Below, piece after piece: positions 8,900-11,925 of a DNA stretch of 64,000 bases. Made by a program: the position numbers and the translations under genes. Positions within the stretch are counted from its first letter, which is position 1. Each line of letters starts with the position of its first letter. The stretch lies in IMG/VR virus record IMGVR_UViG_2861084961_000001; one strand, given 5' to 3'. The notes under the pieces were generated by a model. The model was not told the DNA's origin. It was given only the letters and a program-made list of their open reading frames with translations, and searched no databases. The DNA comes from a virus (lineage: Duplodnaviria > Heunggongvirae > Uroviricota > Caudoviricetes).

Positions 8900-9048
8900 T
8901 TCCATACATCTCATTAGCTTTTATGGGTGGCTTCCTTATCGGCTTCGGCATCTGTCGTGATTTAATTAAGCAGGAACTTAAAACCAAAACACTGTGCATC
9001 GGAAAGCGTGTGTATCGGGTAGTTCATGAAACAAAGGTTAGAAAATGA
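8896..9048 (+). CDS. Small single-pass membrane protein (50 aa), paralog of 8521..8700
   Basis: MIPYISLAFMGGFLIGFGIC then GKRVYRVVHET motif. Confidence 0.4.
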   Translation: MIPYISLAFMGGFLIGFGICRDLIKQELKTKTLCIGKRVYRVVHETKVRK

Positions 9049-9335
9049 GCAATTTAACTTCTTGGGACTGGTGGTTGGCCACCTATTTCTTAGCGGCCGG
9101 AGTCGCATTCGCCTTTTACGTAGGTCAGTTAGTCGTAAAACTGCTGCTGATTAAATTTGCCAGTCATAAACGTATCGATGATGGTCTGTGGCGTCTTGGC
9201 ACCCTGGTGGAAACTCGCTACGGGCAACTTAAGGAGAACGAAACCATTACTATCCAAGCGAAACGGTTCACTGCCACCATCACAAGAACACCTAGTCGTA
9301 GAGTGGCCTTGATCAAAAAAGTCACAACCGAATAA
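9045..9335 (+). CDS. Small membrane protein (96 aa)
   Basis: N-terminal hydrophobic segment WWLATYFLAAGVAFAFYVGQLVV. Confidence 0.4.
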   Translation: MSNLTSWDWWLATYFLAAGVAFAFYVGQLVVKLLLIKFASHKRIDDGLWRLGTLVETRYGQLKENETITIQAKRFTATITRTPSRRVALIKKVTTE

Positions 9336-10111
9336 AAATACAATAATAAGTATTTACTTACTTATCTTTTATGTATAAGATGACTTTGTTTTCGTTGAGA
9401 CGCGACTGTTTGAACTTAAATACAAGTGCAAACGAAGAAGTCTATCTGGCAGTAGCCTAATAAGCCAAACACCAGCGAGGTCAGTTTCCAGCCTCGTTAC
9501 CGAAATGGGACACACTGAGCGAGTGTGATTGCAGAACGCAGGAGGGAACATTCATGTTCCCTCCGATGAAGTAACAGAATGGGCGGTTGGTATATTTTCA
9601 ACTCCATATGACTCCCGGATTCTTAGCCACTGACCGCCCATCCTGTTACGTCATTTTGTTCAATTATGTCGTTTATACTGGGTTAAAAAGCGGCGACGTA
9701 GCCCGGCTGGTATGGTTAGCCAGCACACAACGTTGAGGCCATTACATTTTTATCAATTCTAAGGTTCTATTCACAGAGATACCGGCGAGCGTTGATATGT
9801 AACATGTTGGGCAAACATTCAATCGGAGTAGTGGCCTCAACGTTGTGAAGACAGGATTGTTGTGTAGGTTTAACCACTGTTGCCATTGGTGCCTGTTTTC
9901 ACAACAAATGATTCCATACATCACATTGTATAAATAACAAAGTAGGTGCTGTCCTCAGAAACATCATCTACTTAAAGATTTAGCCTTCTATTGAGCGAAG
10001 TCGAAAGCGTCTGGCACTAACGTAAAGTGCAAGTAGCGGTGCGTTTCCTGGCAGAAACTAACACCGCCGCGATTGGCACTGTTGAGTAATAAATACTGTC
10101 AGTGCTGAATT

Positions 10112-10186
10112 GATGGTGTAGCTCAGCGGTAGAGCAGTTGGCTGTTAACCAACTGGTCGGTGGTTCGAATCCACCCACCATCGCCA
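10112..10186 (+). tRNA. tRNA-Asn (anticodon GTT)
   Basis: Cloverleaf by eye: acceptor gatggtg/caccatc, anticodon loop ctGTTaa, T-loop ggttcgaat, CCA end. Confidence 0.8.
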
Positions 10187-10191
10187 ATTTA

Positions 10192-10278
10192 GGGGAGTTA
10201 GTCCGTAGAGGTAGCGGTGTAGACTGTAAATCTACTGTCATGGCGACTCGGGTGGTTCGACTCCATCACTCCCCACCA
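10192..10278 (+). tRNA. tRNA-Tyr (anticodon GTA), type II with long variable arm
   Basis: Acceptor ggggagt/actcccc, anticodon loop ctGTAaa, T-loop ggttcgact, CCA end. Confidence 0.75.
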
Positions 10279-10282
10279 AATT

Positions 10283-10358
10283 GCCGGTTTAGCTCAGTTG
10301 GTAGAGCGCCTGCCTTGTAAGCAGGATGTCAGCGGTTCGAGTCCGTTAACCGGCACCA
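10283..10358 (+). tRNA. tRNA-Thr (anticodon TGT)
   Basis: Acceptor gccggtt/aaccggc, D-arm agctcagttggtagagc, anticodon stem cctgc/gcagg with loop ctTGTaa, CCA end. Confidence 0.75.
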
Positions 10359-10582
10359 ATACAACGATAAGATCATTACGGTTAATCGTCGTTCATGTGC
10401 ACAATGACTGGTCGAAAGGTAGTGATCTTACCGTTGTGGTGGATTCGCAGACTGATGCGATAGCTTTCTTGGATGTTAGGGAAATGCGGCCGCAAATCTT
10501 CCCTTTCGCGAGCGGTGATCGTCCGTAGTCCTAATTGGCTGCACCGTATGCCGGAGATTCAGTACCGGCCACCACAACGGCC

Positions 10583-10669
10583 GGAGAGTAGGGAGCATGG
10601 TGCTCAAGCTGTCTTGAAAACCGCCCCATTGCGCAAGCGATGATGGTTCGATTCCATTACTCTCCGCCA
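10583..10669 (+). tRNA. Type II tRNA-like gene, anticodon TGA (Ser?), imperfect stems
   Basis: Acceptor ggagagt/actctcc, loop ctTGAaa, T-loop ggttcgatt, CCA; anticodon stem and variable arm pair poorly, may be non-canonical or pseudo. Confidence 0.5.
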
Positions 10670-10674
10670 GACAC

Positions 10675-10748
10675 AGCGTTGAGCGGTTTGGCCTTTTAAT
10701 CACCCAGATTAAGACTCCGCTAACATAAACCAGACCGCTCAACGCTGT
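10675..10748 (+). terminator. Long stem-loop (acagcgttgagcggtttgg ... ccagaccgctcaacgctgt) after tRNA cluster
   Basis: 19 bp inverted repeat directly after last tRNA. Confidence 0.45.
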
Positions 10749-10819
10749 GATAGACAATTACGGCAGACGTTCTTAACCATAGCTTGCTAACATCCTAGCA
10801 ACACTTTTTTCAGCGCAAA

Positions 10820-10845
10820 ATTCAAAGGGGCTTCGGCCCTTTTTG
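10820..10845. terminator. Bidirectional terminator hairpin aaaggggcttcggcccttttt
   Basis: GC stem gggc/gccc with ttcg loop flanked by A-run and T-run; lies just 3' of minus-strand gene 10846..11619. Confidence 0.65.
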
Positions 10846-11619
10846 TTAATGATTGCCTAGATATGATTTTAGTTCTTCTTTAATGATTAGTGAGTATTCT
10901 AAAATATCACTTAGTAAAAATTTTGCTCTGTTAAAATAACCACCAAAAGAACCAAAAATTTCAGATGGTCTTTCTAAGAGCATTACAATATCATCTTCTT
11001 GCACTTTAGCAATGTAACTTCTAACAGCTCTTTCTCCAATAACTCTTTTCTTACCGTTTATTTCAGATTCATCTAAAACCTTATTTATAAATTTTTCTGT
11101 ATCATTGAATCGTCCACTATTGTGTACTATTGTATGTCTTAGTAGTTCAATTAGCTTGATGTTAAAGCGATAGTTTTTACCAATCTTGTTGTTTATTTCT
11201 ATCTCTTTGAAGCCAGGTATTTTATTTCTGAAAATTTTAATTATTTTTTTCGATGGGTTACTTTTTGCTTTTAATAATTTGTAATAAACTTCCCCTTTCC
11301 CAATGTCATCATCTTCAACCTTACCAAAATAACTTGAGGACCAGAAATCATTTCGAACACATACAGTATAGACATATATTGCCTCAATATAGTCTTCCAG
11401 TAACTCATAGGCTTCAGTAATAACCCACTGATATTGTTTATTTTTCAAAACATTACACAATCTTATCTTTTCTTCTAAATCAATGGCGCTGTTACCTATC
11501 TCTAATGTTGAACCTGTATATGGGTTTGAACATAAATGGCGAGCTAACGTTGTGCCACACTTAATCTTAATAGTTTCATTAATATTAATAATAGTATCTG
11601 GATTCTGTGCATACTCCAC
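10846..11619 (-). CDS. AT-rich hypothetical protein (257 aa), possible HEPN/Abi-like
   Basis: Clean minus-strand ORF with GGAG RBS; markedly AT-rich compared with flanks; contains R-x4-H motif (LLRHTIVHNSGR). Confidence 0.5.
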   Translation of the reverse strand: MEYAQNPDTIININETIKIKCGTTLARHLCSNPYTGSTLEIGNSAIDLEEKIRLCNVLKNKQYQWVITEAYELLEDYIEAIYVYTVCVRNDFWSSSYFGKVEDDDIGKGEVYYKLLKAKSNPSKKIIKIFRNKIPGFKEIEINNKIGKNYRFNIKLIELLRHTIVHNSGRFNDTEKFINKVLDESEINGKKRVIGERAVRSYIAKVQEDDIVMLLERPSEIFGSFGGYFNRAKFLLSDILEYSLIIKEELKSYLGNH

Positions 11620-11925
11620 TTCTTTTAGAAGACGTTTATATTTTTCTTTGTTGTATCATTTATCTGATTTAAATAGTCAAAAAGTAAAGATATTTCTTCT
11701 CTAAATTCGTTGTATTTTTTTCAATCAAAGAATCAGACAACTTACCAATCATTAAAACCTCTATAAAATGTACATTTCAAGGCAATCCTTACTGTAATCT
11801 ATTGTCATAATCACTTCAATTGTTTACCAGTCAATCAATAAGTTACTACATACTTATCAAAAAAATCTGTTTGTAGTATAGTCTGATATGTTCGAATCAA
11901 TATTTATAAAGGTATTTGTTAGGTT

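What the first reader, a model, noticed from the sequence alone, without database searches (positions are those of the whole stretch)
9336..10760. tRNA cluster embedded in about 1.4 kb of structured noncoding DNA, with an atypical fourth tRNA
Three canonical tRNAs (Asn-GTT, Tyr-GTA, Thr-TGT) are back-to-back. A fourth type II tRNA-like gene (10583-10669, anticodon TGA) has mismatches in its anticodon stem and variable arm. Upstream, 9570-9650 and 9725-9850 contain long inverted repeats (aacagaatgggcggt / accgcccatcctgtt; cacaacgttgaggcc / ggcctcaacgttgtg), and a possible degenerate tRNA lies at about 10500-10580. T4-like tRNA regions are known to include small stable RNAs, so these may be ncRNAs.
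Basis: partly seen in the sequence, partly recalled or inferred. Interest (0 to 1): 0.5.

Follow-up and report, generated by a model that had tools for sequence, protein, structure and literature searches.

The report
Phage RNA operon with tmRNA-like tag
The "structured non-coding DNA" beside these phage tRNA genes is a conserved RNA gene whose first part looks like the message half of bacterial tmRNA (the ribosome-rescue RNA) without its tRNA half; the same unannotated element is in many coliphages, including P1, so it may let phages alter or block host ribosome rescue.

Summary

The window is an SSU5-like phage-plasmid. Positions 9353-10848 read as one RNA operon:
- a promoter-like site;
- a 724-nt highly structured RNA (fold z = -6.8);
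- tRNA-Asn, tRNA-Tyr and tRNA-Thr;
- a hairpin;
- a 152-nt tRNA-shaped scaffold RNA;
- an 8/4-type tRNA-Ser(UGA);
- a hairpin and a terminator.

The first 150 nt of the long RNA form a tmRNA-like tag module. It has an A-rich leader with an invariant A at -4 and no start codon. It then reads GCA AAC..., ten codons (ANEEVYLAVA) and UAA UAA, followed by a helix and two pseudoknots with strong covariation.

The module recurs in SSU5-like plasmids, P1/P7/D6, P22-like and other lambdoid phages, and Felix-O1-like, Vi01-like, T1-like and G7C-like phages. It always keeps ten codons plus a stop (ANEEMYLAVA, ANDEQFLAVA, ANDDLMMAAA, ANDDVVLMAA and others). About 350 of 5426 complete E. coli genomes carry it, and none annotates it.

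No tRNA-like acceptor domain is attached, and ARAGORN and Rfam do not call a tmRNA. How the tag is used, or whether the RNA is a decoy, remains inference.

The fourth tRNA belongs to a known kind, the phage 8/4 tRNA-Ser.

The parts
9353..9381 (+). sigma-70-like promoter candidate: -35 TTTACT (9353-9358), 17-nt spacer, -10 TAAGAT (9376-9381). The predicted start is at or near G9388.
   Evidence: Read directly from the sequence. It matches 8 of 12 consensus positions, so the consensus scan did not call it. Stronger versions sit at the same distance from GUUUUCG in other clades: TTGACA-N17-TAAGAT or TATAGT in Felix-like phages and TTGACA-N17-TAGATT in the L034/BUCT610 type.
9388..10111 (+). 724-nt structured non-coding RNA that ends at the 5' end of tRNA-Asn. 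It is built of hairpin-bounded modules.
   Evidence: Fold z = -6.78. Length is conserved at 625-738 nt in 46 unique SSU5-like sequences. Helices have compensatory pairs. It matches 772 plasmids. No ORF is conserved.
9388..9540 (+). tmRNA-like tag module: GUUUUCG 5' end, small hairpin, A-rich leader, tag frame, helix and two pseudoknots.
   Evidence: Alignment A1 of 32 diverse copies. 90.2% of cells are paired against 29-49% when partners are slid. 15 pairs change on both sides. Covariation score is 0.291 against 0.132 in shuffles, reached by 0 of 500. Weak Rfam hit to tmRNA_permuted, 22.7 bits.
9428..9463 (+). Tag reading frame GCA AAC GAA GAA GTC TAT CTG GCA GTA GCC TAA TAA = ANEEVYLAVA**, with no start codon. 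A at -4, A at -3 and U at -1 are invariant.
   Evidence: All 31 distinct variants, plus those of P7 and UE-S5b, keep 10 codons and a stop. A profile HMM aligns the frame in register with the E. coli ssrA tag.
9476..9539 (+). Helix 5-like stem (9476-9480/9492-9496). Its loop (9485-9490) pairs with 9506-9510 to form pseudoknot a. Pseudoknot b has stem 9511-9516/9522-9527, and its loop GCG (9519-9521) pairs with 9537-9539.
   Evidence: Covariation per helix is given. P7 and UE-S5b keep the same architecture with unrelated sequence.
9541..9564 (+). Separator hairpin GGAGGGAAC/GUUCCCUCC.
   Evidence: 5 of 10 pairs are compensatory among SSU5-like relatives.
9565..9655 (+).
   Evidence: It is highly conserved and shows only G-C/G-U changes.
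9726..9847 (+).
   Evidence: (4 compensatory pairs). The same CACAAC/GUUGUG-bounded separator type occurs in P7 and lambdoid arrays.
10112..10186 (+). tRNA-Asn (GUU)
10192..10278 (+). tRNA-Tyr (GUA)
10283..10358 (+). tRNA-Thr (UGU)
10362..10437 (+). Separator hairpin ACAACGAUAAGAUCAUUAC / GUAGUGAUCUUACCGUUGU.
   Evidence: Minimum-free-energy fold. Same type as the lambdoid separators.
10431..10582 (+). tRNA-shaped scaffold RNA ('module 2'). It has a 12-bp closing stem (10431-10442/10569-10580), a D-like hairpin (10446-10459), an insert that varies between relatives, and a T-like hairpin (10550-10569). The D-loop ACUGA (10451-10455) is complementary to the T-loop UCAGU (10559-10563).
   Evidence: The frame is conserved in P7, D6, HK620 and T1-like phages while the insert varies from 40 to 180 nt. 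The loop-loop pair changes from GCUGA/UCAGC to ACUGA/UCAGU, which is compensatory.
10583..10669 (+). 8/4-type tRNA-Ser (UGA) with G73 and an encoded CCA. The V-arm has a 6-bp stem with a GNRA loop.
   Evidence: There are compensatory changes in the acceptor stem (2), the D stem (1) and the V-arm (1).
10672..10749 (+). Separator hairpin, a 20-bp stem.
10824..10848 (+). Intrinsic terminator that closes the RNA operon.

Best explanation
Positions 9353-10848 are one phage RNA operon. It makes tRNAs, tRNA-shaped RNAs and a long structured RNA whose 5' module is a tmRNA-type tag template.

Shown:
- The tag module is a conserved, folded RNA element.
- Its tag frame behaves like a coding sequence.
- Its sequence context matches the resume site of tmRNA.
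- It is shared by many unrelated Enterobacterales phages.

Inferred:
- The long hairpins and tRNA-like units act as punctuation for RNase P, E or III and release the tag RNA.
- The frame is read on stalled host ribosomes by a trans-translation-like route. Rescued proteins would then receive a phage-specified C-terminal tag (...YLAVA here) instead of, or in competition with, the host ...YALAA tag.
- No acceptor domain is attached, so entry into the ribosome must depend on a partner. Candidates are a co-encoded tRNA-shaped RNA (module 2 here, CCA-ending tRNA-like RNAs in other phages), the 5'/3' terminal pairing of the long RNA, or the host tmRNA-SmpB system.
For: 1. Tag frame.
- It has the same first 8 nt as E. 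coli ssrA (GCAAACGA) and the same length of ten codons.
- Residues 3-4 are acidic or amide, residue 6 is aromatic, and the tail is hydrophobic and Ala-rich. Several clades have a double stop.
- A profile of 32 copies aligns with the ssrA tag from resume codon to stop, in register.

2. Resume-site context.
- A at -4, A at -3 and U at -1 are invariant in all 32 aligned copies.
- A86 (-4) is the key, nearly universal frame determinant of tmRNA, and U85 tolerates C (PMC2481249).
- There is no AUG or Shine-Dalgarno sequence in frame. In lambdoid copies an in-frame UAG lies 8 codons upstream.

3. Coding-type evolution.
- Scans that did not constrain the tag gave 31 distinct variants, and all are intact.
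- 19 of 25 single-step differences fall at codon position 3, and TAA/TAG exchange is seen.
- In the 10 nt never constrained by a search pattern the count is 8 of 12 (p = 0.06).
- Very divergent copies still have 10 codons plus a stop: P7 ANDDLMMAAA and UE-S5b ANDDVVLMAA.

4. tmRNA-like architecture downstream: a helix plus two H-type pseudoknots with strong covariation.

5. Breadth.
- 317 and 287 phage records, 772 plasmids, and 120 or more IMG/VR contigs.
- The element always lies in tRNA arrays or at the sites where phages keep tRNAs: the lambdoid late leader, the P1 ban operon leader and the Felix-like tRNA array.

6. Expression signals: promoter-like sites directly upstream in three clades and a terminator downstream.
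Against: - No tRNA-like domain is attached. ARAGORN finds no tmRNA in the window or in 20 related loci. Rfam gives only sub-threshold permuted-tmRNA hits of 22-30 bits.
- No G3:U70 acceptor stem was found in any neighbouring tRNA-shaped RNA.
- Module 2 is not an obligatory partner. A strict motif search found it downstream of the tag in 37 of 79 non-SSU5 loci with enough flank, in 8 of 57 SSU5-like loci, and in 0 of 4 Felix-like loci.
- Outside the tag there is no detectable sequence homology to E. coli ssrA. blastn finds none. The colinear 6-mer chain equals that of shuffles. The profile hit is 5.8 bits, which is not significant genome-wide.
- The 5'/3' terminal pairing (GUUUUCG with CGAAAA before tRNA-Asn) is only weakly supported.
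- The promoter is below the scan threshold.
- I have no expression or proteomic data.
Confidence: 0.45

Rival explanations
1. The tag module is a message-domain-only decoy or inhibitor. It is not translated. It mimics the message part of tmRNA to titrate a factor such as SmpB tail, S1, RNase R or a tmRNA-cleaving toxin, or it pairs with the host resume region. This would be the mirror image of the TLD-only RNA of mycobacteriophage DS6A, which inhibits tmRNA.
For: No acceptor domain was found. A phage 'half tmRNA' that inhibits trans-translation is documented (PMC4131195 and PMC11915505). The leader UUUGCG is complementary to the host's CGCAAA around the resume codon (read).
Against: A pure RNA mimic does not predict the codon-structured variation, the fixed 10-codon length and the retained stop codons. 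The nucleotide sequence of the tag diverges freely from host ssrA while the peptide type is kept.
Confidence: 0.2
2. The whole upstream region is only cis-acting processing or regulatory RNA for the tRNA operon: a leader, RNase III/E/P punctuation and attenuators. On this view the resemblance to a tmRNA tag is coincidental.
For: Long perfect hairpins of 13-24 bp separate every unit. GUUUU fits an RNase E site. Terminator-like hairpins precede the module in P7 and lambdoid phages.
Against: The tag module also occurs in phages with no tRNA genes, such as HK620 and T1-like phages. The invariant resume-site context and the in-register match to ssrA are hard to obtain by chance in seven phage groups. 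Processing hairpins do not need a double pseudoknot.
Confidence: 0.2
3. The region is a decaying relic: a fragment of a bacterial ssrA gene and pseudo-tRNAs picked up by recombination and hitch-hiking in tRNA arrays, with no function.
For: The arrays are recombinogenic. BUCT610 has a truncated tRNA 3' end, L053 has a Sib RNA insertion, and modules are present or absent between close relatives.
Against: The reading frame is intact in every copy. Covariation maintains four helices. The module has its own promoter in three clades. It persists across very different phage families and hundreds of genomes.
Confidence: 0.05
4. The interval encodes small proteins. Some records annotate short hypothetical CDSs over it.
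For: Mechanical ORFs of 30-93 aa overlap the region. Cyrano and BUCT610 carry such annotations.
Against: None of these ORFs is conserved between clades. Substitutions follow RNA pairing instead. Most records annotate nothing here.
Confidence: 0.03

Closest known systems
tmRNA (SsrA, Rfam RF00023) and two-piece permuted tmRNA (RF01849-51, RF04321)
   Same: Both have a tag frame without a start codon, beginning GCA AAC GA-. Both frames have ten codons of the AN[DE][DEN]x[YF]...A type ending in stop(s). Both have an A-rich upstream tract with A at -4, and both are followed by a helix and pseudoknots. The phage RNA is expressed alongside tRNAs.
   Different: The phage module has no acceptor stem, no T-arm, no 3' CCA, no G3:U70 and no PK1. 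The transcript appears to begin where tmRNA's D-loop analogue would be. tmRNA finders do not detect it. It has no sequence homology to ssrA outside the tag.
TLD-only tmRNA relative of mycobacteriophage DS6A, and complete phage tmRNAs (Bxz1-type mycobacteriophages, Bacillus phage G)
   Same: These are phage-borne derivatives of the trans-translation RNA. DS6A shows that a phage can carry just one half of tmRNA.
   Different: DS6A keeps the tRNA-like half and lacks the tag. The element here keeps the tag half and lacks the tRNA-like half. The hosts are Enterobacterales, not Actinobacteria or Bacillus.
(8/4) tRNA-Ser / allo-tRNA (Mukai et al. 2017, PMC5389517)
   Same: The fourth tRNA has an 8-bp acceptor stem and a 4-bp T stem, a 2-nt linker to a short D arm, a long V-arm, G73 and a serine anticodon. 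That paper reports such tRNAs in phage tRNA clusters.
   Different: This one is in Enterobacterales phages (SSU5-like, P1-like, Felix-like). This particular copy has one U-C mismatch in the anticodon stem.
Small stable RNAs of the T4 tRNA region (species 1 and 2), and tRNA-like Y RNAs (YrlA)
   Same: They are non-tRNA structured RNAs co-transcribed with phage tRNAs and have tRNA-like acceptor, T or D features. This comparison rests on memory and was not tested.
   Different: There is no sequence or Rfam match. None of those RNAs carries a tag frame.

Membership tests
tmRNA (one-piece) | tRNA-like domain: 7-bp acceptor stem formed by the 5' and 3' ends, with G3:U70 and a 3' (N)CCA | tested here: not met
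   ARAGORN gives no tmRNA call in the window or in 20 loci. The transcript start is predicted at GUUUUCG. Only a weak 4-6-bp 5'/3' pairing exists in SSU5-like copies, without G:U or CCA.
tmRNA (one-piece) | T-arm with T-loop adjoining the acceptor 3' strand | tested here: not met
   There is none in the tag module. tmRNA-like T-arms occur only in some neighbouring separator modules of other phages (L053, L008).
tmRNA (one-piece) | Tag reading frame without a start codon, beginning at a resume codon (usually GCA) and ending in a hydrophobic/Ala-rich degron plus stop | tested here: met
   9428-9463 encodes ANEEVYLAVA**. All relatives keep 10 codons plus a stop.
tmRNA (one-piece) | Upstream frame determinant: A at -4 (A86) in an A/U-rich single-stranded tract | tested here: met
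   A at -4, A at -3 and U at -1 are invariant in A1. The role of A86 is taken from PMC2481249.
tmRNA (one-piece) | Helix 5 and pseudoknots after the tag | tested here: met
   A helix and two pseudoknots are supported by covariation.
tmRNA (one-piece) | Score at or above the Rfam gathering threshold, or sequence homology to host ssrA | tested here: not met
   There is no RF00023 hit. RF04321 scores 22.7 bits against a gathering score of 47. blastn to E. coli genomes finds no ssrA. The 6-mer chain is at random level.
Two-piece (permuted) tmRNA | An acceptor piece ending in CCA encoded upstream, whose 3' strand pairs with the 5' end of the coding piece | tested here: not met
   In some lambdoid copies a hairpin unit ending ...UCCA abuts GUUUUCG. 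That unit pairs with itself: its stem covaries within the unit, as in L031. A promoter separates the units in three clades.
(8/4) tRNA-Ser / allo-tRNA | 12-bp acceptor branch split 8/4 | tested here: met
   GGAGAGUA/UACUCUCC plus AUGG/CCAU. The Klebsiella type has GGAGGAUA/UAUCCUCC, with 2 compensatory pairs. The best Rfam model is tRNA-Sec. A 7/5 reading with a G-U pair and a 3-nt linker is not excluded.
(8/4) tRNA-Ser / allo-tRNA | Long variable arm, G73 and a serine anticodon | tested here: met
   The V-arm has a 6-bp stem with a GNRA loop and one compensatory pair. The discriminator is G and the anticodon is UGA.
(8/4) tRNA-Ser / allo-tRNA | Serylation and use in translation | not testable with these tools
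   This needs aminoacylation assays.
Bacterial Y RNA (YrlA) / T4 species 1-2 RNAs | Match to the family model or sequence | tested here: not met
   There are no Rfam hits at E <= 10 in 9200-10900, or at E <= 1 in 8 related loci. The T4 RNAs were not compared directly.

The most novel reading that the evidence does not exclude
Enterobacterales phages, including the model phages P1 and HK620, carry a widespread family of tmRNA-type tag templates that lack any tRNA-like domain. These RNAs would be loaded onto stalled host ribosomes by an unknown route: a separate tRNA-shaped partner RNA, or capture of host tmRNA-SmpB. They would thereby re-program, or sabotage, the tag added during ribosome rescue. 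This would be a new way for viruses to manipulate translation quality control, and a new architecture for trans-translation.
Probability: 0.35. Interest if true: 0.9.

Novelty: new variant of a known kind. Interest (0 to 1): 0.72.

Why it matters
tmRNA is thought to need its tRNA half to deliver its message half. Known phage versions are either complete tmRNAs or, in DS6A, the tRNA half alone.

A conserved message-half-only RNA raises a direct question. It is present in hundreds of coliphage, Salmonella and Klebsiella phage genomes, in P1, and in about 6% of complete E. coli genomes, and it is unannotated everywhere. Either trans-translation can use a template supplied in trans, or phages deploy a tmRNA mimic.

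Both options can be tested at once in P1, HK620 or SSU5-type plasmids. Useful methods are tag recoding, ssrA and smpB mutants, and mass spectrometry.

The work also gives a reading for the puzzling 'spacer' DNA in phage tRNA arrays. It consists of hairpin-bounded, tRNA-shaped RNA modules with exchangeable inserts.

Tried and rejected
- Global homology of the 724-nt RNA to E. coli ssrA. blastn gave nothing. blastn-short gave only the tag and scattered short matches. The colinear 6-mer chain was no better than shuffles. Rejected.
- A permuted tmRNA using the upstream unit or tRNA as the acceptor piece. The Rfam hits of 26-30 bits simply borrow an adjacent tRNA or promoter sequence, and the upstream units pair with themselves. 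Rejected.
- An acceptor stem formed between the 3' strand of the upstream separator and the 5' strand of the downstream separator. L031 has unrelated separators on the two sides. Rejected.
- Module 2 as an obligatory acceptor partner. It co-occurs often but is absent from about half of lambdoid-type loci and most SSU5- and Felix-like loci. Downgraded.
- Conserved intermolecular pairing of the tag leader with downstream RNA. RNAduplex partners differ from locus to locus. Rejected.
- The overlapping -1 frame ORF, [A/G/C]UG CAA ACG...UAG. Its length is not conserved (5-9 aa), and the substitution pattern favours the tag frame. Rejected.
- Neighbouring proteins with a translation role such as SmpB, RNA ligase or CCA enzyme. 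None was found: only DNA ligase, glutaredoxin, an integrase fragment and proteins of unknown function.
- A literature search for a prior description. tmRNA database papers list only mycobacteriophage and Bacillus phage G tmRNAs and the DS6A TLD-only form. Ten full-text searches found no enterobacterial phage tag RNA. The library is open-access only, so prior description cannot be excluded.
- An RNAduplex test of the phage module against host tmRNA, with shuffles. It timed out and was not repeated.
Full report
**What the window is.** The interval 9300-10860 is 98.5% identical to Escherichia phage CMS-2020a. It is about 97% identical to phage Cyrano and about 75% identical to Salmonella phage SSU5 over 9308-10187. 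The sub-interval 9336-10111 matches 772 plasmids of Escherichia, Klebsiella, Enterobacter, Yersinia, Salmonella, Citrobacter and Cronobacter. One E. albertii plasmid is 100% identical. The window is therefore an SSU5-like phage-plasmid, not a T4-like phage.

**Checking the observation.**
- ARAGORN reports the four tRNAs at the coordinates given. Rfam's tRNA model accepts Asn, Tyr and Thr. The fourth gene reaches only the tRNA-Sec model, at 40.2 bits against a gathering score of 47.
- The two inverted repeats are real, and there are two more.
- The stretch 9388-10111 folds far better than shuffled sequence, with z = -6.78.
- In 46 distinct SSU5-like relatives the distance from the conserved GUUUUCG to tRNA-Asn is 625-738 nt.
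- An RNAalifold consensus of 15 representatives shows compensatory pairs in several helices: 9541-9551/9554-9564 (5 pairs), 9726-9745/9828-9847 (4 pairs), 10014-10018/10026-10030 (2 pairs) and 10075-10081/10100-10106 (2 pairs).
- No ORF is conserved across the region.

**The unexpected feature.** A permissive Rfam scan gave a weak hit to the permuted-tmRNA model at 9330-9460 (22.7 bits, E = 0.037). The hit is driven by GCAAACGAAGAAGTCTATCTGGCAGTAGCCTAATAA at 9428-9463. This reads A-N-E-E-V-Y-L-A-V-A-stop-stop. The E. coli ssrA tag is ANDENYALAA-stop-stop and also starts GCAAACGA.

The segment around this frame is shared at about 74-80% identity with unrelated phages:
- HK620 and HK633 (P22-like);
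- Felix-O1-like and Mooglevirus phages;
- P1, P7, D6 and RCS47;
- Ackermannviridae (Vi01-like);
- T1-like Klebsiella and Escherichia phages;
- G7C-like Gamaleyavirus;
- others.

Its position is telling.
- In HK620 it lies in the late-operon leader between qut and tQ.
- In Michonne it lies inside the tRNA array behind a TTGACA-N17-TAAGAT promoter.
- In P7 it lies between the C1 operator of the ban operon and tRNA-Asn.
- About 350 of 5426 complete E. coli genomes carry it, on 141 chromosomal and 219 plasmid places. RefSeq annotates it in none of the records listed.
- Among GTDB species representatives only a Pseudocitrobacter contig is a plausible true hit. The element is essentially phage-borne.

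**Is the frame a frame?** An IMG/VR scan with a pattern that left codons 3-6 free returned at least 120 loci. It gave eleven peptides, all AN[DE][DEN]x[YF]LAVA. A second scan used only flanking RNA motifs, so the tag itself was unconstrained. Every real hit again had an intact frame. New variants included AAC to AAT, GTA to GTG, TTC to TTT, TAA to TAG, V to A and N to K.

Overall there are 31 distinct nucleotide variants, and all have ten codons plus a stop. Of 25 single-step neighbour pairs, 19 differ at codon position 3 and 15 are synonymous. Restricted to the ten nucleotides never fixed by a search pattern, the count is 8 of 12 (p = 0.06). That is suggestive rather than decisive, and the pairs are not independent.

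Very divergent copies keep the same design. P7 and P1 encode ANDDLMMAAA, and UE-S5b encodes ANDDVVLMAA**.

Upstream, A at -4, A at -3 and U at -1 are invariant in 32 diverse copies. In tmRNA, A86 at -4 is the nearly universal frame determinant, and U85 tolerates C, which is what the window has at -5 (PMC2481249). There is no in-frame start codon or Shine-Dalgarno sequence, and lambdoid copies have an in-frame UAG eight codons upstream. A profile HMM of the 32 copies aligns to the E. coli ssrA locus exactly from resume codon to stop. The score is only 5.8 bits, so this shows register, not genome-wide significance.

**Structure of the tag module.**
- After the stop comes a conserved AAACACCAG.
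- A 5-bp helix follows. Its loop pairs with a downstream segment to form pseudoknot a.
- A second H-type pseudoknot (b) follows.
- On alignment A1 the proposed pairs are 90.2% formed, against 29-49% when partners are slid.
- Fifteen pairs change on both sides, and the covariation score is 0.291 against 0.132 in shuffles, reached by 0 of 500.
- P7 and UE-S5b keep the same topology with unrelated sequence.
- The 5' part is GUUUUCG, a small hairpin with a 3-16-nt loop, and UUUGC, which can pair with the resume GCAAA.

A tag followed by a helix and pseudoknots is the layout of the message side of tmRNA.

**What is missing.** No acceptor stem, T-arm or CCA belongs to the module.
- Promoter-like sites end about 7 nt before GUUUUCG in SSU5-like, Felix-like and L034/BUCT610-type copies. 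The window's version (TTTACT-N17-TAAGAT) is too weak for the consensus scan.
- ARAGORN calls no tmRNA anywhere.
- Rfam gives only sub-threshold permuted-tmRNA hits that borrow neighbouring sequence.
- Outside the tag there is no homology to E. coli ssrA.
- The tmRNA database papers list phage tmRNAs only from mycobacteriophages and Bacillus phage G, plus the TLD-only DS6A RNA that inhibits tmRNA.
- I found no description of a tag-only form. The paper library is open-access only.

**The rest of the operon: a module array.** In every phage group the tag module sits in a string of units. The units are separated by long hairpins of 13-24 bp, often bounded by CACAAC...GUUGUG. The hairpin stems covary within the hairpin.

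Many units are tRNA-shaped. 'Module 2' (window 10431-10582) has these features:
- a closing stem;
- a D-like hairpin and a T-like hairpin with complementary loops (GCUGA/UCAGC in lambdoid copies, ACUGA/UCAGU here, a compensatory change);
- an insert that differs completely between relatives, from 40 to 180 nt.

Other phages place CCA-ending tRNA-like RNAs with large inserts right after the tag module, for example SP38, UE-S5b and Michonne.

Module 2 follows the tag in 37 of 79 lambdoid- or T1-type loci with enough flank, in 8 of 57 SSU5-like loci, and in none of 4 Felix-like loci. It is therefore a frequent neighbour, not an obligatory partner.

In SSU5-like copies the 5' GUUUUCG can pair with CGAAAA(U) immediately before tRNA-Asn. 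In the window and in Klebsiella-type copies this pairing is interrupted by an inserted hairpin. The 5' side never varies and some 3' variants mismatch, so the support is weak.

**The fourth tRNA.** Twenty-nine copies were recovered. Between the E. coli and Klebsiella types there are compensatory changes in the acceptor stem (2), the D stem (1) and the variable arm (1). The variable-arm loop stays GNRA.

The best reading is an 8-bp acceptor stem plus a 4-bp T stem, a 2-nt linker, a short D arm, G73, an encoded CCA and anticodon UGA. This is the (8/4) tRNA-Ser type that Mukai et al. reported from phage tRNA clusters (PMC5389517).

**Interpretation.** I read 9353-10848 as one RNA operon that ends at the terminator 10824-10848. 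The secure part is that the tag module is a conserved, folded, phage-borne RNA of tmRNA type, with a frame under coding-like constraint.

How it works is inference. The favoured option is that the frame is read on stalled ribosomes, which requires a partner to provide tRNA-like entry (confidence 0.45). The alternatives are:
- a non-translated message-domain decoy (0.2);
- mere processing or leader RNA with a coincidental tag (0.2);
- a decaying relic (0.05);
- small proteins (0.03).

**Verdict.** The finding leads to an apparently undescribed, widespread variant of a known kind of RNA. It can be tested directly in classical phages.

Noticed in passing
window 10850-11900: A low-GC island (about 30% against 42-52% around it) lies directly after the RNA operon terminator. 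It holds one minus-strand ORF (10846-11619, 257 aa) with no Pfam or PADLOC hit and only phrog_35492 (unknown function). Cyrano has different genes at this position, so this looks like a variable cargo hotspot next to the tRNAs.
   Followed up: partly
L004 (Citrobacter phage Michonne) 1-836: A gene annotated 'RNA-binding protein, DUF2828' lies immediately upstream of the tRNA and tag-module array. I recall DUF2828 as possibly related to Ro/TROVE proteins, which bind tRNA-like Y RNAs. A link to the tRNA-shaped modules is possible.
   Followed up: no
L053 1600-1748: A Sib antitoxin RNA (Rfam RF00113, 107.8 bits) with its surrounding DNA is inserted between the tag module and the next separator in one lambdoid contig. 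This shows that the array accepts insertions.
   Followed up: no
L164 (Klebsiella phage BUCT610) about 2085-2100: Only the last 25 nt or so of a tRNA (T-loop, acceptor 3' strand and CCA) remain, fused to a tRNA-shaped module. This is evidence of deletion or recombination inside these arrays.
   Followed up: no
L004 about 2797-2925; L166 about 2192-2317; L165 about 1817-1885 and 1885-2010: Conserved tRNA-like RNAs were not called by ARAGORN. Each has a 7-8-bp acceptor stem, a canonical T-arm, an encoded CCA and an 80-100-nt insert in place of the D and anticodon arms. This is a TLD-plus-cargo architecture of unknown function.
   Followed up: partly
L008, about +230 to +267 from the tag start; L053, about +685 to +705 from the tag start (extract 1085-1105): Some separator modules contain segments resembling the 3' end of E. 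coli tmRNA. L008 has AUAUCGGUGCUGGGUUGAUCUCCAGCCGUCAGCUCCAC and L053 has GUGGGUUCAACUCCCACC. The E-values are borderline (0.6-1.5), so homology is unproven.
   Followed up: partly
window 9045-9335: The last gene before the RNA operon (96 aa, phrog_4507, unknown function) is annotated 'C-type natriuretic protein' in SSU5 and in several plasmids. This is almost certainly a propagated mis-annotation.
   Followed up: no
window 10192-10278: tRNA-Tyr is present here and in some relatives but absent from Cyrano and P7. The 220-nt hairpin and module 2 block is also absent from Cyrano. The tRNA set is variable among near-identical plasmids.
   Followed up: no
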